Shown in pieces: positions 49,150-57,271 of a stretch of 64,000 bases of DNA. A model generated the notes under the pieces. It ran no database searches. It worked only from the letters and a program-made list of their open reading frames with translations, and was not told where the DNA came from. The position numbers and the translations under genes are program-made. The number at the start of each line of letters is the position of its first letter. Position 1 is the stretch's first letter. Source of the stretch: Ionaspis alba (Eukaryota); the NCBI GenBank assembly GCA_964255285.1, contig CAXUUL010000016.1:1-64000 (forward strand). Direction: 5' to 3'.

Positions 49150-50010
49150 GCTGACTGTGTTGAATGTAAAATGGGGGAGACGAGATGGAGGGTGGAGTTC
49201 GCTGCAAGGGAAAGAGGGAAGGATGCTGGTAAGTTATAGATCGACGCCGGAGCAAGCAAGCTTCGAGTGGGGTTGTAAAGTGATAGAGGCGCCTAAGCGC
49301 ACCAGTTGTAAGAACGAATCGCAAGTAAATAGAAGTTGAGACGATGTTGGATCCCAGAGTTCTAGATGTTCGAGGCGAGCTCGATCGCTATAGCATCCAG
49401 AAGCTGGTTAAATGGGAAGGGTGTCAATATTTACTTTGCAGCTGTGGTGTTTTTAGATGTGGAAGATATATTATTGCATTCACCGATTCGAGTTGTGAAT
49501 CAGGATGGTTGGGGTCAATCGATTTCATGAGTTTGCTTTTCGATATTACCCCGCCATTACCTCTGTTTCCAGTCCCACCCGTTTCAATTCACCCTGGCAG
49601 GCGCGCAGGGTACCCTGCTGCCACAAAGTCGGTAACTTGTGGTCGCAGTTTAGCTGAAAGGCCGTTAGACGTGCCCCGGAACATCTGACTATTGGGTGGT
49701 CCCCGCCTCGGAGGCCAACTACATGGGGGCTGAGGTGGCTGTGAACAAGGGACCCCGATGTGCAGTACTCAGGGTTGTGTCTGCAGAGACAGTCACCTAA
49801 ACCTAATAAGAATTTGGACGGCGCTGCTACCCGAACAGATTCTACTGTTACCAGAGCCATATCACGCATGCAGGTGGGAAAACGGCTTGGCGGCAGCTCA
49901 GCCTTGTGATCGGAGCCCTACTTTTCCATCTCCTCAAATTAGGTTATTTTTTTCATCTTCCAGAGCCGACACAATTGCGTTGTTTGGCTGCTACAGCAAT
50001 ATTATCAATC

Positions 50011-52404
50011 ATGGGTGGCCAGTCTAGGAAAGCGACGAAGAAGTTTGAGAAGAACCATCTGAAAGATATCATTGAGCAGCGCAAAGACCACGCAAAAATC
50101 AAACAGCGTCAGCAGATCAAAGCTAAGAAGAAAGCCAGGAATGCGAGCGACTACGCCAAAGTTTCGGATCAGGAAGAGCCGGGCGCAACGGAGAGGAATG
50201 GCGGCAAACAGAGTCGCACAGCGGATGCTCTGAAAGACATGACTGTGGATGAGTTCTTCCAAGGCGGATTCGATATTCCGGAACTCAAGGAGGCCCCCAA
50301 AACGCAGTCGACGGTTAAACACCTTGCACCTCAAACAGGAAAACGAAAGCAGCATGTTGGGTCAGATGATAAAATTGAGACCAGCGTTTCAGACTCCATG
50401 ATCTTGAACGGAGAGGAAGTTCCAGCGGACGACCCAATCGTGTCCGAGTCCGAGCCCGAATCCGAGTCCGAGTCCGAATTCGAAGGCGATACAGCGATTA
50501 GAGCACACAGAGGGGAATTGGATGCCTTGGCTGCGAACGATCCAGACTTCTACAAATACCTGAAGGAGAATGATGCAGATATGCTGGACTTTGCCGAGGA
50601 CGCGGACCTACCGGCTGTTCAAGTGAGCGAAGAGGAGGACGAACCGCCCTCTAAAAAAATAAAGCGCAAGCAGGTCGAGGCGGCTGTTCTGGAAACGGAC
50701 GAGGAAACAGAGGTGACGATGGCGCTGCTCGAGAAGTGGCGGACTGCCATGGCAGAGCAGAAATCTTTGCGAGCAATGCGCGAGGTGGTTCTGGCTTTCC
50801 GTGCCGCCGTTCATGTCAACGAGGAGGACGGTAAAGCATACAAGTATAGCATTTCTAGTCCTGAGGTCTATCACCAGCTTCTTGTGATCTCTTTGCAATA
50901 TGTCCCCGAAGTCCTGGGTCACCACCTTCCCATCAAGGAAGTAACGTCGGGCAGAGTGCGTGTTCCGACGGACTCAAAGAAGTATCGAACCTTGACACCC
51001 CTGCTGAAGTCTCATGCTGCATCGCTACACCACTTGCTAGAAAATCTATCGGACCCTCCGACCATCAAACTGACGTTGAATTCAGTGCTCCCACTGCTTC
51101 CTTATGTGCTGTCATTCAAAAAGGCCCTCAAGAATCTAACCAAGACGATTGTCGGCATCTGGTCGGATTCTTCGAGCACGGAAGTGACCCGTATCAACGC
51201 CTTCCTTCTTATCCGTCGATTGGCCGTCATTAGCGATGCTTCTCTTCGTGAGGCTGTCCTCAAGACAACTTATCAAGGCTTGGTCAAAGGCAGTCGAAAC
51301 ACGACCATACACACTCTACCAGGTATAAATCTTATGAAAAATTCTGCAGCTGAGCTCTGGGGTCTCGATCCGACTATCGGGTACACAACCGGCTTCACAT
51401 ATATTCGCCAGCTCGCAATTCACCTTCGGACTAGCATCACCCAACCCACCAAAGACTCCTACAAAGCTGTCTATAATTGGCAGTACACGCATTCCTTAGA
51501 CTTTTGGTCTCGGGTGCTCTCTCTCCACTGCTCGACCGCGACCAACCCCACAATCAGGAAGCCCTTCGACTCACCGCTCCACCCACTCATCTATCCTCTT
51601 GTTCAGATCACATTGGGAGCGCTGCGCCTCATCCCAACACCTACTTATTTCCCGCTTCGCTTCCATCTCGCTCGATCTATACTCCGTATATCTCGCAGTA
51701 CGAATACCTACATTCCGCTTGTGCCATCACTCGTCGAAGTTCTGCAATCACCAGAATTGAGGAAAGCCCCCAAGGCTAGTACTCTGAAACCGCTCGACTT
51801 CAATGTTGCCATTCGAGCACCCAAGTCTTACATCCGCACCCGTATCTACCAAGATGGGGTCGGCGAGCAGGTTTCCGAGCTTTTGGCCGAGTTCTTTGGG
51901 GTTTGGTGTAAAAGCATTGCCTTCCCCGAGCTCGTCATTCCACCTACTGTACTGCTGAAGCGATGGTTGAAGGAAGTCTCTGCGCCTCCATCGAAAGGAT
52001 CACAGATTTCAGGGGCGCGGAAAGATGGCAAAGGCAACAAGAATTCCAAGCTGAATTCATCCATCTCGCTTTTGGTCCAAAAGCTTGATGCTAACGCGAG
52101 GTACGTGGAAGAGACCAGAAGGAGGGTCGACTTTGCCCCGAGCAATCGCACGGCAGTCGAGGCTTTCCTGAAAGACGTAGAGTGGGAAAATATGCCGTTG
52201 GGGGCATTTTTGGTGGGGATGAGGAAGCAGCGGGAGCAAAGGGAGAAAATTTTAGAAGAAGGAAGGAGAGAGGAGCAGGAACGGCGGGACCAGGAGAAAG
52301 AGGATGGCAAGTCGGTCGACGAAGCCAGCGCTATTTCGACCGAAGGTGGTGATGATGACCTTGATGACGAGGTTGATGGAGATGGAGAGGCGATGGACGA
52401 ATAG
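50011..52404 (+). CDS. NOC2: Nucleolar complex protein 2, intronless
   Basis: KATKKFEKNHL, DPDFYKYLKEND, FTYIRQLAIHLR, VYNWQY, PLIYPLVQ, YFPLRFH, SIAFPEL. Confidence 0.95.
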   Translation: MGGQSRKATKKFEKNHLKDIIEQRKDHAKIKQRQQIKAKKKARNASDYAKVSDQEEPGATERNGGKQSRTADALKDMTVDEFFQGGFDIPELKEAPKTQSTVKHLAPQTGKRKQHVGSDDKIETSVSDSMILNGEEVPADDPIVSESEPESESESEFEGDTAIRAHRGELDALAANDPDFYKYLKENDADMLDFAEDADLPAVQVSEEEDEPPSKKIKRKQVEAAVLETDEETEVTMALLEKWRTAMAEQKSLRAMREVVLAFRAAVHVNEEDGKAYKYSISSPEVYHQLLVISLQYVPEVLGHHLPIKEVTSGRVRVPTDSKKYRTLTPLLKSHAASLHHLLENLSDPPTIKLTLNSVLPLLPYVLSFKKALKNLTKTIVGIWSDSSSTEVTRINAFLLIRRLAVISDASLREAVLKTTYQGLVKGSRNTTIHTLPGINLMKNSAAELWGLDPTIGYTTGFTYIRQLAIHLRTSITQPTKDSYKAVYNWQYTHSLDFWSRVLSLHCSTATNPTIRKPFDSPLHPLIYPLVQITLGALRLIPTPTYFPLRFHLARSILRISRSTNTYIPLVPSLVEVLQSPELRKAPKASTLKPLDFNVAIRAPKSYIRTRIYQDGVGEQVSELLAEFFGVWCKSIAFPELVIPPTVLLKRWLKEVSAPPSKGSQISGARKDGKGNKNSKLNSSISLLVQKLDANARYVEETRRRVDFAPSNRTAVEAFLKDVEWENMPLGAFLVGMRKQREQREKILEEGRREEQERRDQEKEDGKSVDEASAISTEGGDDDLDDEVDGDGEAMDE

Positions 52405-52990: not shown

Positions 52991-54960
52991 TTATTGAACC
53001 ATTTCCTCCCCTATTCCCGGCAAGCCCGCGCCAGCGATATTGGCGTTTAAACCAGCATTGATGGGTATGCCCGCACCGAGCTTCAATTCTGGATTGCAGG
53101 GCGGAGAGTGAGACTTGTGGTATTTCAGCCCATTCAGATTTTTATAGCGCTTGCCACAGACCTCGCATTTGTAGGGCTTTTCTTTTTCCATGCCGAGAGT
53201 GCCAGGATATGGAGACAGAGTGGTGGGGTCGACAATGGAGAATGTACCATCAGCGTTCTCATGTAGCTGCTGGTTATTGTGGCCATGCTGCAAAGTGGTA
53301 ATTAGTCTTGTGCGACGGACTGCCACACGATAAGCTTACCGTCTTATGATACTTTAGTCCATTCTGGTTCTTGTATGCTTTCTCGCAGCCTATGACAGGG
53401 CATCTGAATGGTTTTGGTTCTTCTCCGTTCATACCCGTGGTTGTGTCCGCTAGCCCAACTCTCCGTTGCTGCTCGCGGATCCTCCGCGCAATCTCACTAT
53501 TAGCGCCATACTGTGCACTCCCTAGTCTGGATTGAGTGTACTGTTGGTTGTTGAAGCCGCCGTTCGGATTGAATAATCGTTTGGCGGGCTCGTCAATGCA
53601 AAGATCCAACATATCGTTCCCGTTCCCAAACCCGTAACCACCTAAATCCTGCTGTTGACCTTGCATGAACTGGCTGTTATCCACAGCCATGTTGTCCATG
53701 TGCCCCAGAAAATCCGGATCCAACTCTCCGGGAGTTCCGGGTGCGGATGAGTCGGGTGTGTTGCGAAACTGCTGCTGCTGCAGAGGATGAGCGCTCAGCG
53801 TTGGTGTATTGACCGACGAAACTGTAGGGTTATGATGATAAAGGCCCCCAGGTCGACCACCTGAAACAGGAGTTGATGGCTGAGAGTGTTTTAAGCCCTG
53901 ATAGCTATGCAAAGGATTGTTCAGGTTGTGGGTGTTGAGATCAAGAGGAGGAACCCGTGCGCCGCCTGGCTGACCGAACTGAGATCGTGGAGGAATCGGA
54001 GGTCTGTCTTGTAAAGGGTATTGTGATTGTAGCTGAGCATTTGAGTGGAAATCATCCCCGAGCCCCCCGCCTGAGATATCATCCATGTCCATATCCTCGA
54101 CGGACTCCATGTTATGTACCGGCTGTGATGAAAGCGAGGTGAATTCTCCTGGCCTGAACTGGGGATGGGATGGTAGAGCACGGGTAGAACTAGGCCCTTG
54201 GCGAGAAGATGATGACTGGTTCGTGGAGCTGGAGCTGTTCTGGTGTTGCTGCTGGACATTCGTAGCAGCCGAAGCGGCAAGTGCAGCTCTTGTGTCTGGA
54301 GGGGCCGTGCTTTGATGGGTTGGTTGCATAGGCATCGTGGTGGGCATTTGCTGAGCATGAGCCTCTTCATAATGCTGCAGCAGGTCATGTAGAGAAGGTA
54401 GTGTCATTCCGCAACAGGAGAAGTCTTTCATGAAATTGGCTTCGAGTTTCGGAAGATAAGAGGAGGAGTGGAAAGAGGGAGACTGGTAGGCAAAAGGTGA
54501 GGTTCCTTGCATTATGATGCTACTAAAGCATTAGTACTATCTTCGACGAGCTACCAGAACTTCATGCCAGCGAGCTTTGGGGAACAGGGAGGTACAAGAT
54601 AGAGAGAGGACTTAGCACATACTCGTCGCGAATCCAACTCCCGACCGAGACTCCACCCCAGCTCATACCTCCTACAAGGCTGCCAGCCAGACTTTCTCGC
54701 CTAGGTTGGGATCTTCCCGCACTGTTCATGGATATAGGTTGTGCTCCGCTACCATATTGGGGCGTCAGTCCCGACATGGCTGCGGACAGAGAATCGTGCC
54801 GTCCAAAAGCGGTCGATTTGCCGCCGCCGCCAACCACGTTCAATGCTGATGAAGGTCTGATCTCATTTCCAGTGGTGGCTTGTAGGGCGGATGTCAGGTT
54901 AGACGAGCGGTTTTGCGGCGACTGGGTGGCAATGCTGATAGGGGAGGAAGCCGTCGCCAT
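52991..54960 (-). CDS. SFP1: Split C2H2 zinc-finger transcription factor; introns 54520-54622 and 53288-53339; possible CTG start at 55245
   Basis: RRESLAGS...[23 protein letters not shown]...[69 protein letters not shown]. Confidence 0.95.
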
Positions 54961-57271
54961 TGCACGTGGCGGTGAGGAGTGGCCGAAGAGAGGAAAGCTG
55001 GAATCGTCCAAGTCGGAATCAAGCAGGGCCGAGTCGAGATAGAGGCTGGACTGTCCGCCGAAACCGTCGATGGACTTGCGATGCCAGGAGAAGAGGAGAT
55101 CCTTCTCCCGCTCCGACTTGCGCGGATAGACAGGGCCGAAACCCTTGGGCGTGCCAACCGGAGTCGTTTCGCTGGGAGAGACTCGTTCAAAGTCACTTGG
55201 GGTGGGCGAGTAGTGTAGAGGAGGTGGAGTCTCTCGAGAATCCAGCTTTACGAATTATTGAAGTCGAGATCTTAGGGGGAAGAGAGGCGGATATAAGCGG
55301 TGAGGTGTTTCGAGGCGGGAATACGGCTTTTGGGTTGACAGTTGCGGCGAGTGGCGACGGTGTGTATTGCAGTTGCCAGTGAAGCTGAAGAAGATGAATA
55401 AAGTGCCTGCTTGATGAAGCTGGGGAGATAGGTGGGTGGATGAAGGAAGTGGTACGAGTAGTCGCAGGAGCAGTAATAGCAGGCGCACTAGTGGTAGTGA
55501 GAGACGGGATGCTTGGCGGGCTAGAAGACTAATGTAGGCATGGAATAGTAGTACCCATGTAATAACACTGTAATGAGAAGGACAGTGATGGTATTATTGT
55601 GGAAGAGTTATGTCAGAGCACCTTTTTACTTCCTCGTACTCCGTATGATTGGCACTATGACGAACCGAAACGGGGGGCACCGGCTGCTGAGTTAGGGACC
55701 CTGTTTAGCTTGACCACAGTATCCATAAGCGCTTGTACACTTTACTCGTGCTCGCACTGTCCGCTGGATTCTCTCCACCACCCAGCACAACTGCCGGTAA
55801 AATATCCAGACTATTGACAAGCGTTAGATGGGGTAGTGCAGGTGCCTGCAGACTTAAGTCTGACCAGCTCCGACGATATAATCCGGTGTCAGACCACAGA
55901 AGTAGCATTTTTGTCAGCGTGCAAGCTTGCCGAGGAAGGGCCATGATCGTGAATGCCATCTGCCAACCTGCCTCGGAAGGCGGACGGAGTGGCAACACAT
56001 ACATGGCATGGACGGGGTGGCAAGAATTATGAGTGTACAGCTTACGAAGTCCCTCTGCGACATCTTCAATCTTGACTCTAGTAATTGTTCTCGGAGGATG
56101 ATGTCTGTTCTGAAGCATATGCAGAAGCGACGACACAGGGACTGTACGACATGTTATGGACGGTCATTATTGTTCCAACTGATCGATCTCCGTTCACCCT
56201 GATTATTCAGGGTTGTGGGATTGTGGAGAGGATCGGAAGGACCCGATCGTGAAACCTGTGGATGCTACCACACCATCGACATGTGCAATCGTTTAAGCAA
56301 GTCAGCGTTCCGATAGCTGGCTATGATCAAATATGGTCCAGCATCGCCGGAACAAGGCTGTCATGATGGATTTTATGAGTTAGAGTCCCTTCAACAGCAA
56401 TCAAGTACGGACGATATCACAAGAAATGGGCCGTTTATAGCTGACGATTATAGGAAAGAAGTGATCTCCACGAGAATGAAACTCTCCAAATGTCCTCTGA
56501 GCGTAAGGGTATGCTTTTCTGATTATGTGATCCCCTTGACATGGATAAATGGGGTATGATGAACAGAAAGGGGTATCTTGAAGAGCTGGAGAAGAAGATG
56601 GATATAGTGGAGGCTACTAAGAAAAAGAGTTTGGCGCCTCAGCGTTTCCACGTTTCTCAGGGTCTTGGCAATTCGGCTCTTCTTCTCGTTGATGACGGAA
56701 CCCTATTTGCTGCACCAGGACGATCTAGCCCTTGGATGGGACCTAAGCATAGCTGACCACCAAAACAGCCGTCTGTCTTCCAGTCACCCATTGTCCTCTT
56801 ATTCGATCCAATCTACATAGGGTAGACCGGGCCAAGGACCCCGTCAAGCCACAATGCGGTGAATTGTACCTTCAATCAACCGATCAAGAAAACGGTTCCT
56901 GCTCTTCGACAGTTCCTTCCCTGTCAAACAGTACACTGGATGCCAATTCCAGACAACAGCTGGCAGCCCCGGAGAGCTGTGAGGCGCTACTACCATTGAG
57001 CGGCCAAAGCACAGTTGAGCTTCAACCATGTAAGTTCGACGTGCTCTCTTGCCCCTTGTAGATTACATTAGATTATCAGGGTATGGAGTACCAACTCGTG
57101 GAGTCGGCGCTTCACCGGCGTGAGTTTACGAGTGATCGGCTGCTAAGGTCTCTGTCGTAGTGTGTTGCACGCGTCTGTCACTGAGGCCATGTATCTGAGC
57201 GGCTGAATCCGAACAACTCGAGGATGGTTCCAAGGAATAGGTAGCACACTCGAACAATCGGCTATCCTATA

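What the first reader, a model, noticed from the sequence alone, without database searches (positions are those of the whole stretch)
54961..55245. SFP1 probably carries a CUG-initiated 95-aa N-terminal extension inside an ATG-free leader
Seen: on the minus strand the SFP1 frame is open from TAA (55257-55255) to the first ATG (54960). Three codons after that stop is CTG (55245-55243) in the context gtaAAG-CTG-G (A at -3, G at +4). I found no ATG in any frame from 54961 to 55538, about 578 nt. The extension reads (M)DSRETPPPLHYSPTPSDFERVSPSETTPVGTPKGFGPVYPRKSEREKDLLFSWHRKSIDGFGGQSSLYLDSALLDSDLDDSSFPLFGHSSPPRA. It has clustered S/T-P sites, two RKS basophilic-kinase-type sites and an acidic-aromatic DSDLDDSSFPLF motif resembling an activation domain. 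Known: yeast Sfp1 is a TORC1-controlled ribosome-biogenesis regulator, and Neurospora cpc-1 has non-AUG N-terminal extensions. Inference: leaky scanning gives long and short Sfp1 isoforms whose ratio follows start-codon stringency, a possible feedback from translation to ribosome synthesis. I do not know of this being described.
Basis: partly seen in the sequence, partly recalled or inferred. Interest (0 to 1): 0.8.

Follow-up and report, generated by a model that had tools for sequence, protein, structure and literature searches.

The report
Conserved CUG start lengthens fungal Sfp1
In this lichen-type fungus the growth regulator gene SFP1 has a conserved 95-residue front part with no AUG before it; it very probably starts at a CUG codon kept unchanged across two classes of fungi, so one mRNA should give a long and a short protein, and many database gene models of it are wrong.

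Summary
On the minus strand the SFP1 frame is open from TAA 55257-55255 to the first ATG (54960). CTG 55245-55243 sits in gtaAAG-CTG-G. No ATG occurs in any frame from 54961 to 55538, the longest ATG-free run in the window.

The 95 codons are coding. Homologues cover them, the frame is intact in 42 of 42 distinct sequences, and dN/dS is 0.06-0.32.

In 33 of 33 distinct sequences without an ATG, the first conserved codon is CTG, with A at -3 and G at +4. Five other conserved leucines in the same sequences use CTG in 8-11 of 33. Eurotiomycete-type relatives have an ATG one codon upstream, with T at -3 in 9 of 9, and the CTG is not kept there.

The internal Met is invariant (42 of 42). The interval before it holds 7 ATGs against 46.5 expected. 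This fits leaky scanning to a second start.

No RNA or protein data were available, so the transcript start, the initiation event and the isoform ratio remain inferred. I found no paper on it.

Verdict: a new member of a known kind (near-cognate-started N-terminal extensions), with strong comparative support.

The parts
55246..55538 (-). ATG-free 5' leader (293 nt) upstream of the CTG. The transcript start is not known.
   Evidence: There is no ATG in any frame. Orthologous loci are ATG-free for 110 to more than 695 nt upstream of their first start.
55255..55257 (-). In-frame TAA stop, three codons upstream of the CTG. It closes the frame to any start further upstream.
55246..55253 (-). Conserved context block at -8..-1 (TCGTAAAG here; consensus Y C G Y N A A R).
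   Evidence: information content is low upstream of -9. A at -3 and A at -2 in 33/33, G at -6 in 32/33, C at -7 in 31/33.
55243..55245 (-). Proposed CUG start codon of the long isoform (A at -3, G at +4).
   Evidence: CTG in 33/33 distinct ATG-less sequences. Five other conserved Leu columns show CTG in 8-11 of 33 with 5-6 codon types. The next codon is GAT in 27/27 Asp cases, although GAC makes up 257 of 357 other Asp codons.
54961..55245 (-). 95-codon N-terminal extension (NTE), predicted disordered, with conserved short motifs.
   Evidence: Homologues cover it. The ORF is intact in 42/42 sequences. dN/dS is 0.06-0.32. There are 0 in-frame Met codons in 42 sequences. AF2 mean pLDDT is 50.5. 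No Pfam family matches.
55204..55230 (-). TPPPLHYSP motif (residues 6-14).
   Evidence: P7, P8, P9, L10 and S13 are invariant in A3.
54985..55035 (-). Acidic-hydrophobic motif DSALLDSDLDDSSFPLF (residues 71-87).
   Evidence: F87 is invariant. D78, F84, P85 and L86 are at least 90% conserved.
54958..54960 (-). Invariant internal ATG, proposed start of the short isoform (context gcaATGg).
   Evidence: Met in 42/42 sequences. Purine at -3 in 35/42 and G at +4 in 41/42.
54623..55245 (-). Exon 1 (from the CTG).
   Evidence: GTATGT donor at 54622. The joined frame gives [14 protein letters not shown], as in homologues.
54520..54622 (-). Intron 1 (103 nt, GTATGT...CTAAT...TAG).
53340..54519 (-). Exon 2.
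53288..53339 (-). Intron 2 (GTAAGC...GCAG), splitting the first C2H2 finger.
52991..53287 (-). Exon 3 with the second zinc finger and the stop (52993-52991). The whole CDS gives 699 aa from the CTG and 604 aa from the ATG.

Best explanation
The gene is the SFP1-type split-zinc-finger regulator of a lecanoromycete fungus. Its nearest named relative is Xylographa trunciseda.

Proposed mechanism:
1. The mRNA has a long AUG-free leader.
2. Scanning ribosomes first meet CUG 55245-55243 in a near-optimal context (A at -3, G at +4). A fraction initiates there with Met-tRNAi and makes a 699-aa protein. Its first 95 residues are a conserved, disordered extension carrying TPPPLHYSP, S/T-P sites, WHRK and an acidic FPLF motif.
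3. Ribosomes that pass the CUG meet no AUG in any frame until the invariant AUG at 54960, and there they make the 604-aa form.

The same two-start design is kept in other classes. Dothideomycete-type and lecanoromycete-type relatives keep the CUG. Eurotiomycete-type relatives have an AUG one codon upstream (AAG to ATG is a single base change), always with a weak context (T at -3).

Shown here: the sequence facts, the coding constraint on the extension, the invariance of the CTG and its context, and the depletion of AUGs.

Inferred: that the leader is transcribed, that initiation happens at the CUG, that both forms are made, and what the extension does.
For: (1) The extension is coding.
- 235 database proteins match the 208-aa query, and many cover 100% of it.
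- The ORF is intact from the start position to WIRDD in 42 of 42 distinct sequences.
- dN/dS of the extension is 0.06-0.32 in the 19 of 21 pairs with finite dS. The downstream part of the exon gives 0.00-0.30.

(2) No AUG can start it.
- The window has a TAA three codons upstream.
- None of the 33 CTG-type sequences has an in-frame ATG back to the upstream stop or the contig edge.

(3) The start codon.
- CTG occurs in 33/33, against 8-11 of 33 at five other conserved Leu columns and 26% of all other Leu codons.
- A at -3 in 33/33 and G at +4 in 33/33.
- The following Asp codon is GAT in 27/27, although GAC is preferred elsewhere.
- Conservation starts abruptly at -8.
- In the window, L007 and L053, AAG(-1) and CTG are the only in-frame near-cognate codons after the stop.

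(4) ATG-type relatives.
- The ATG sits at the K-codon position, with T at -3 in 9/9.
- The former CTG position is free to vary (ATC, CTC, TTT, TTG, TTC; 0/9 CTG).

(5) Leaky scanning.
- The internal Met is present in 42/42, with G at +4 in 41/42.
- The extension has 0 in-frame and 7 out-of-frame ATGs in 12,198 nt. Synonymous resampling expects 46.5 +/- 5.5 out-of-frame ATGs (minimum 34 in 200 runs).
- The downstream exon has 158 in-frame and 113 out-of-frame ATGs in 14,502 nt and shows no depletion.

(6) Distribution.
- In a quick tree all 33 CTG-type rows fall in one 48-row group (SH-aLRT 90). That group also holds named Dothideomycetes, Lecanoromycetes, Sarea, Coniocybomycetes and Trizodia.
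- ATG-type rows group with named Eurotiomycetes.
Against: - There is no direct evidence of transcription or translation. No RNA run holds the stretch, so the transcript start and splicing of the leader are unknown.
- The two codons before the CTG look partly coding-like: V/A/S then K, with free third positions. AAG (28/33) or GTG (16/33) could therefore add or replace starts in some species.
- For the window alone, the absence of out-of-frame ATGs inside the extension is not significant (0.83 expected, P(0)=0.37). That signal comes from the family as a whole.
- The sequences are related, so the counts are not independent events. The Leu and Asp control columns come from the same sequences and control for this only in part.
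- No conserved RNA structure that could aid CUG recognition was found downstream (0 pairs).
- Some relatives (L064-L066) have no extension at all, so the long form is dispensable in some lineages.
Confidence: 0.75

Rival explanations
1. An upstream exon with an AUG is spliced in frame onto the extension, for example at the AAG just before the CTG, so that the start is an ordinary AUG.
For: The window has AG directly before the CTG. Forty-four of the 120 listed database models put more than 14 residues in front of the conserved part. No RNA data are available to exclude splicing.
Against: - Five of 33 CTG-type sequences have AAA, not AAG, before the CTG, and no AG is conserved at -10/-9.
- The residues that database models place upstream are unrelated to each other.
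- An acceptor would not explain an invariant CTG, the invariant A at -3 and G at +4, or GAT in 27/27.
- The leaders are ATG-free for 110 to more than 695 nt.
Confidence: 0.05
2. The extension is translated, but it starts at AAG (-1) or GTG (-2), or at several near-cognate codons, and the CTG is only one of them or not used.
For: AAG is present in 28/33 and GTG in 16/33 sequences. V-K is conserved as amino acids with variable third positions. The ATG of eurotiomycete-type relatives aligns with the AAG codon, not with the CTG.
Against: AAA (5/33) and GTA, GTT, GCG or TCC (17/33) are not near-cognate, so only the CTG is shared by all 33. By established knowledge (recalled), AAG is among the weakest near-cognate codons and CUG the strongest.
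Confidence: 0.08
3. Only the long form is made. The internal Met is an ordinary conserved residue and the lack of ATGs between the two is a by-product of composition.
For: The extension is proline-, serine- and acid-rich. The window alone is not significantly depleted of out-of-frame ATGs.
Against: - Across 42 sequences there are 7 out-of-frame ATGs against 46.5 +/- 5.5 expected, with amino acids held fixed.
- There are 0 Met codons in 12,198 nt of extension against 158 in 14,502 nt downstream.
- The first start is weak in both designs: a CTG, or an ATG with T at -3 in 9/9.
- Lineages without the extension begin at this Met.
Confidence: 0.12
4. The extension is not translated in this organism. 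It would be a relic, or a regulatory leader whose conservation is at the RNA or DNA level.
For: There is no direct evidence of translation. Eleven of the 120 listed models start at the internal Met.
Against: dN/dS is 0.06-0.32, there is no frameshift or stop in 42/42 sequences, variation is third-position, and no conserved RNA structure was found.
Confidence: 0.03

Closest known systems
Near-cognate-started N-terminal extension of Neurospora crassa cpc-1 and its Pezizomycotina homologues (Ivanov et al. 2017, PMC5487733; abstract and outline read, term search of the text)
   Same: Both have a conserved in-frame extension of a transcription factor upstream of the annotated AUG, no AUG to start it, conserved near-cognate codons, and long and short forms from one mRNA.
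   Different: cpc-1 has a leader of more than 700 nt with two uORFs and several candidate near-cognate codons. Here a single invariant CUG sits at the exact 5' edge of conservation, and the leader and extension are AUG-free. 'sfp' does not occur in that paper.
DualAUG / DualNCC genes of fungi: a weak first start followed by a strong in-frame AUG, as in the aminoacyl-tRNA synthetases (Wallace et al. 2020, PMC7049704; passages read)
   Same: The first start is leaky (a weak-context AUG or a near-cognate codon) and is followed by a strong in-frame AUG. That paper states that weak AUGs and near-cognate codons have replaced each other several times in fungi, which is the CTG/ATG swap seen here.
   Different: In those genes the extension is a mitochondrial targeting peptide. 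Here it is an acidic, proline-rich disordered region of a nuclear regulator, and SFP1 is not mentioned (0 papers hold 'Sfp1' and 'non-AUG').
c-Myc CUG/AUG isoforms and C/EBP LAP/LIP isoforms in animals
   Same: A master growth regulator gives long and short forms from one mRNA by choice of start codon. In c-Myc the upstream start is a CUG, and in C/EBP the short form lacks the activation region.
   Different: The proteins are unrelated. No evidence here shows that the Sfp1 forms differ in activity.
Other non-AUG extensions noted by this scan (WHI2, a sugar porter, a Zn2Cys6 factor; one in this same genome, e1-7680186)
   Same: Same kind of feature in filamentous ascomycetes, several of them lichen fungi.
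   Different: They are different genes, and SFP1 was not among them. I did not re-test those notes.

Membership tests
Near-cognate-initiated N-terminal extension (cpc-1 type / DualNCC) | An in-frame ORF upstream of the first AUG with no AUG able to start it. | tested here: met
   In the window, TAA lies three codons before the CTG and there is no ATG. None of the 33 CTG-type sequences has an in-frame ATG.
Near-cognate-initiated N-terminal extension (cpc-1 type / DualNCC) | The extension is under purifying selection as protein. | tested here: met
   dN/dS is 0.06-0.32 in 19 of 21 pairs. The ORF is intact in 42/42 sequences. Motifs are conserved.
Near-cognate-initiated N-terminal extension (cpc-1 type / DualNCC) | A conserved near-cognate codon in good context at the 5' edge of conservation. 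| tested here: met
   CTG in 33/33, A at -3 in 33/33, G at +4 in 33/33. Control Leu columns show CTG in 8-11 of 33.
Near-cognate-initiated N-terminal extension (cpc-1 type / DualNCC) | The codon lies within the transcript (transcript start upstream, no intron removing it). | not testable with these tools
   No RNA run holds the stretch, and only DNA-type contigs could be laid.
Near-cognate-initiated N-terminal extension (cpc-1 type / DualNCC) | Initiation at the codon shown by profiling, a reporter or an N-terminal peptide. | not testable with these tools
   This needs an experiment.
Leaky-scanning two-isoform gene | A weak first start, a strong second in-frame AUG, and no AUG between them. 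| tested here: met
   The first start is a CTG, or an ATG with T at -3 (9/9). The second AUG is present in 42/42, with purine at -3 in 35/42 and G at +4 in 41/42. There are 7 ATGs in the interval against 46.5 expected.
Leaky-scanning two-isoform gene | Both protein forms detected. | not testable with these tools
   This needs an experiment.
Sfp1 family (split zinc-finger regulator of ribosome biogenesis) | Two C-terminal C2H2 fingers separated by a spacer. | tested here: inconclusive
   The spliced translation shows two C..C...H..H motifs about 40 residues apart. Pfam zf-C2H2 on the 72%-identical P0001 scores 22.6 bits, below the 25.2 cut-off, and zf-C2H2_aberr scores 21.8, below 27. The window's own spliced protein was not scanned.
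Sfp1 family (split zinc-finger regulator of ribosome biogenesis) | Orthology to Saccharomyces cerevisiae SFP1. | not tested
   This rests on names given by sources to homologues ('Transcription factor SFP1', 'split zinc finger protein', 'Transcriptional regulator of ribosomal biogenesis proteins'). No reciprocal search against yeast was run.
Sfp1 family (split zinc-finger regulator of ribosome biogenesis) | TORC1-controlled activation of ribosomal protein and ribosome biogenesis genes. | not testable with these tools
   This is known for yeast (recalled). There are no data for this fungus.

The most novel reading that the evidence does not exclude
The Sfp1 long/short ratio would be a conserved read-out of start-codon stringency, set by eIF1, eIF5 and eIF2 activity and thus by nutrients and TORC1. 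It would feed back on ribosome synthesis. The CUG-started extension carries the acidic FPLF activation or regulatory motif, so the AUG-started form would be a weaker or antagonistic factor. This would be a fungal counterpart of the c-Myc CUG/AUG and C/EBP LAP/LIP switches. It would have been kept since before Dothideomycetes and Lecanoromycetes split, and rebuilt with a deliberately weak AUG in Eurotiomycetes.
Probability: 0.2. Interest if true: 0.85.

Novelty: new member of a known kind. Interest (0 to 1): 0.6.

Why it matters
Sfp1 is the main nutrient-responsive activator of ribosome synthesis and a cell-size regulator in yeast (recalled). If filamentous ascomycetes make two forms of it from one mRNA, chosen by how strictly ribosomes pick start codons, then the translation machinery would tune its own production. 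That idea can be tested directly with tagged alleles and start-codon mutants in model moulds.

The comparison also gives an unusually clean natural experiment. The same extension is started by an invariant CUG in a good context in two or more classes, and by an AUG in a poor context in another class.

There is a practical consequence as well. Among the 120 listed database models of this protein:
- 44 carry unrelated invented N-termini;
- 11 are cut back to the internal Met;
- 4 start without Met at VKLDS, KLDS or LDS.

Gene finders therefore mis-annotate this regulator in lichen fungi and Dothideomycetes.

Tried and rejected
- **RNA evidence.** The look-up of sequencing runs (kind rna) listed no RNA holder, only two contig-type runs from one study. 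Read laying on 54400-56300 showed an identical X1 contig and low-depth X2 fragments, with no joints, starts or ends. The transcript start and splicing could therefore not be examined.\n- **RNA structure.** I looked for a conserved structure downstream of the CUG that might aid initiation. RNAalifold on 23 sequences (-10..+100) gave 0 pairs.\n- **Domains.** Pfam found no domain in the first 208 residues. AF2 with a 33-row alignment gave mean pLDDT 50.5 and no fold, so no fold search was run.\n- **Literature.** Ivanov 2017 deals with cpc-1 only and 'sfp' occurs 0 times. 'Sfp1'+'non-AUG' gave 0 papers. 'Sfp1'+'Pezizomycotina' gave 2 papers, both unrelated by title and abstract. 'Sfp1'+'start codon' gave 89 papers; the 15 listed are yeast studies by title and abstract, and none concerns alternative starts.\n- **Splice acceptor at AAG|CTG.** Rejected, because AAA occurs there in 5 of 33 sequences.\n- **GTNAAG as a splice donor.** Rejected by eye, because it lacks G at +5 and is GCG or TCC in 7 sequences. 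This was not computed.\n- **Tree.** The careful search did not finish, so only the quick tree (SH-aLRT) is used. P0028 was dropped because my end-motif pattern did not find it.\n- **Earlier notes near this place.** None.\n- **Script.** timed out and was rerun faster.
Full report
**Observation.** All readings are on the minus strand.
- The sequence reads TAA (55257-55255) TTC GTA AAG CTG (55245-55243) GAT TCT CGA GAG and onwards.
- The frame stays open to ATG 54960-54958.
- No ATG occurs in any frame between 55538 and 54961. The nearest upstream ATGs (55541, 55558) are out of frame.
- This 578-nt run is the longest ATG-free gap on either strand of the window. In 20,000 composition-matched shuffles of the stretch the mean was 4.98 ATGs and P(0) was 0.005.
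- A contig of run X1 is identical over 54400-56300, but it may be the source of the window.

**Gene.** Splicing exon 1 (55245-54623), exon 2 (54519-53340) and exon 3 (53287-52991) gives one open frame of 699 codons from the CTG, or 604 from the ATG. It ends in two C2H2-type fingers.
- A search with the first 208 residues found 235 proteins at E <= 0.001, of which 120 are listed. The best is Xylographa trunciseda at 72% identity. Sources name several of the hits 'Transcription factor SFP1', 'split zinc finger protein' or 'Transcriptional regulator of ribosomal biogenesis proteins'.
- Orthology to yeast SFP1 rests on those names. I did not test it.
- Xylographa is a lecanoromycete, and the window pairs with it in a quick tree (SH-aLRT 96).

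**The 'leader' ORF is coding sequence.**
- Many homologues cover 100% of the query, extension included.
- A scan of metagenome contigs with alignment A1 gave 79 loci. Fifty-nine had a match reaching query residue 10 or less. Seventeen of these were identical to another locus over -60..+120, which left 42 distinct.
- I set aside L068 because its register was uncertain. I analysed 41 loci plus the window, which makes 42 sequences: 33 without an ATG ('CTG-type') and 9 with one ('ATG-type').
- The other 20 loci matched only from residue 26 onward and were not counted. One search examined 17 loci (16 of those 20, plus L068). Of these, L040, L052, L057 and L068 have ATG-type starts.
- All 42 sequences have an uninterrupted frame from the start position to the WIRDD/E motif at the end of exon 1.
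- Nei-Gojobori dN/dS of the extension is 0.06-0.32 in the 19 of 21 pairs with finite dS (11 of them with dS < 1). The rest of the exon gives 0.00-0.30.
- Conserved residues include P7-P9, L10, S13, T32, P33, W54, D78, F84-F87 and M96.
- The region has no Pfam family and is predicted disordered (AF2 mean pLDDT 50.5).

**Where it starts.** Conservation begins abruptly. Information content is low upstream of -9. Then comes Y C G Y N A A R, CTG, GA.
- In all 33 CTG-type sequences the first conserved codon is CTG. At five other Leu columns that are at least 90% conserved in the same 33 sequences, CTG makes up only 8-11 of 33 and 5-6 codon types occur. CTG is 26% of all other Leu codons.
- A at -3 and G at +4 are present in 33/33.
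- The next codon is GAT in 27 of 27 Asp cases, although GAC makes up 257 of 357 other Asp codons.
- None of the 33 has an in-frame ATG between the upstream stop (or contig edge) and the CTG.
- In the window, L007 and L053, the only in-frame near-cognate codons after the stop are AAG(-1) and the CTG.
- The codon before the CTG is AAG in 28 and AAA in 5. The one before that is GTG in 16 and GTA, GTT, GCG or TCC in 17. The CTG is therefore the only near-cognate codon that all share, and there is no conserved AG acceptor in front of it.

**The ATG-type relatives.**
- In 9 distinct loci an ATG sits exactly at the K-codon position. AAG to ATG is one base change, and the spacing to TPPPL is the same.
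- The position that is CTG elsewhere reads ATC, CTC, TTT, TTG or TTC there (0/9 CTG).
- Their ATG has T at -3 in 9/9 and T, C or A at +4. By the established scanning model this is a poor context.
- Named proteins that start this way are from Aspergillus, Talaromyces, Histoplasma, Coccidioides, Arthroderma and a Chaetothyriales species. These are Eurotiomycetes by recall.
- In the quick tree the ATG-type loci group with them (clades of 8 and 7 rows, SH-aLRT 99 and 98). All 33 CTG-type rows lie in one 48-row group (SH-aLRT 90). That group also holds named Dothideomycetes (Lojkania, Boeremia, Melanomma, Clohesyomyces, Bathelium), Lecanoromycetes, Sarea, Sclerophora, Chaenotheca and Trizodia. Classes were checked for six of these names.
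- The tree is the quick version only, and P0028 was left out of it.

**Second start.**
- The Met at residue 96 is invariant in 42/42 sequences, with purine at -3 in 35/42 and G at +4 in 41/42.
- Between the first start and this Met there are 0 in-frame and 7 out-of-frame ATGs in 12,198 nt. The rest of exon 1 has 158 in-frame and 113 out-of-frame ATGs in 14,502 nt.
- With amino acids held fixed and codons redrawn from the pooled usage, 46.5 +/- 5.5 out-of-frame ATGs are expected in the extension (minimum 34 in 200 runs). Downstream, 79 +/- 6.7 are expected and 113 are observed.
- Six of the seven exceptions are one shared 6-codon mini-ORF. It starts 23 nt before the Met in one group of loci and ends 2 nt before the Met. 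The seventh is in L028.
- Leaders are ATG-free for 110 to more than 695 nt upstream of the first start.
- For the window alone, the synonymous-site test is not significant (0.83 expected, P(0)=0.37).

**Reading.** The simplest account is this:
- a scanned, AUG-free leader;
- a first start kept weak, either a CUG in a strong context or an AUG in a weak context;
- an AUG-free interval;
- an invariant second AUG.

That is the design of a leaky-scanning two-isoform gene. Wallace et al. 2020 describe the design for fungal aminoacyl-tRNA synthetases. They note that weak AUGs and near-cognate codons have replaced each other several times in fungi (passages read). Conserved near-cognate-started extensions of a fungal transcription factor are known for cpc-1 (Ivanov et al. 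2017; abstract, outline and a term search of the text).

I found nothing in print on SFP1. 'Sfp1'+'non-AUG' gave 0 papers. 'Sfp1'+'Pezizomycotina' gave 2 unrelated papers. The 15 listed of 89 papers with 'Sfp1'+'start codon' are yeast studies by title and abstract.

Earlier notes of this scan report the same kind of feature in other genes (WHI2, a sugar porter, a Zn2Cys6 factor), one of them in this same genome. I did not re-test them. They suggest that the phenomenon is common in these fungi, which lowers the surprise of any one case.

**What remains inference.**
- The transcript start, the absence of an intron in the leader, initiation at the CUG, the existence and ratio of the two proteins, and the role of the extension.
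- No RNA run was available.
- The conserved positions -8..-5 and the amino-acid-like conservation of V-K before the CTG are unexplained. AAG or GTG may contribute as starts in some species.
- That the acidic FPLF motif is an activation domain, and that the ratio reports start-codon stringency back to ribosome synthesis, are hypotheses. The parallels to c-Myc and C/EBP are recalled, not read.

**Other lineages.**
- L064-L066 have no extension within 900 nt upstream and begin at the conserved Met.
- L072-L078 have a different, AUG-started front part of about 60-85 residues.

**Annotation.** sorted the 120 listed database models with a simple motif pattern:
- 44 have more than 14 unrelated residues before the TPPPL motif;
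- 29 start with M within 14 residues of it. Most are Eurotiomycetes. Three MKLDS models from unnamed sources probably reflect a GTG read as a start by a prokaryote-style gene caller, which is inference;
- 4 start without Met at VKLDS, KLDS or LDS;
- 11 start at the internal Met;
- 32 were not classified by the pattern.

**Verdict.** The kind is known and the gene is new to it. Direct proof is still missing.

Noticed in passing
window 55539-55558 (minus strand): Two short ATG-started ORFs lie just upstream of the ATG-free run: ATG 55558 (9 codons) and ATG 55541 (6 codons). They could be uORFs of the leader, or they could lie upstream of the transcript start.
   Followed up: no
window 49810-52404 (+ strand): A long open frame (864 aa stop-to-stop) converges on SFP1. 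Its product contains MGGQSRKATKKFEKNHLKD... By recall it resembles the nucleolar ribosome-biogenesis protein Noc2. This was not tested.
   Followed up: no
window 55246-55253 and loci: Positions -8 to -5 before the CTG are conserved (Y C G Y; C at -7 in 31/33, G at -6 in 32/33). This reaches beyond the usual -3 context and is not coding-like at -7. It is unexplained.
   Followed up: partly
L014, L015, L018, L019, L020, L022 (about +253 to +274 from the CTG): One group of lecanoromycete-type loci shares a 6-codon out-of-frame ATG mini-ORF that starts 23 nt before the internal Met and ends 2 nt before it. It is the main exception to the ATG-free interval.
   Followed up: partly
L064-L066: Eurotiales-like loci (MTGAAPIDI...) have no homologue of the extension within 900 nt upstream and an in-frame stop 3-11 codons before the Met. 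The long form seems to be lost there.
   Followed up: partly
L072-L078: Another group of relatives has a different front part of about 60-85 residues (M P x x W L/F x S K ... FIDDD) started by an ATG with A at -3. It is possibly a sordariomycete- or leotiomycete-type design. No names were available.
   Followed up: partly
protein P0028 (Haloplaca sp.): This lichen-fungus model begins MDSRDTPPPLHFSP, with M exactly where its relatives have the L of KLDS. It may be a natural CTG-to-ATG change or an annotation artefact.
   Followed up: no
run X2, record 4, window 55204-55252: A 13-kb contig of another organism in run X2 matches the window only over the 49 nt around the CTG, with 6 differences. 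This fits the nucleotide-level conservation of the start region.
   Followed up: no
proteins P0081 and P0107: NCBI models of Melanomma pulvis-pyrius and Boeremia exigua are marked partial and begin at KLDS and LDS, as if the annotators had found no ATG.
   Followed up: no
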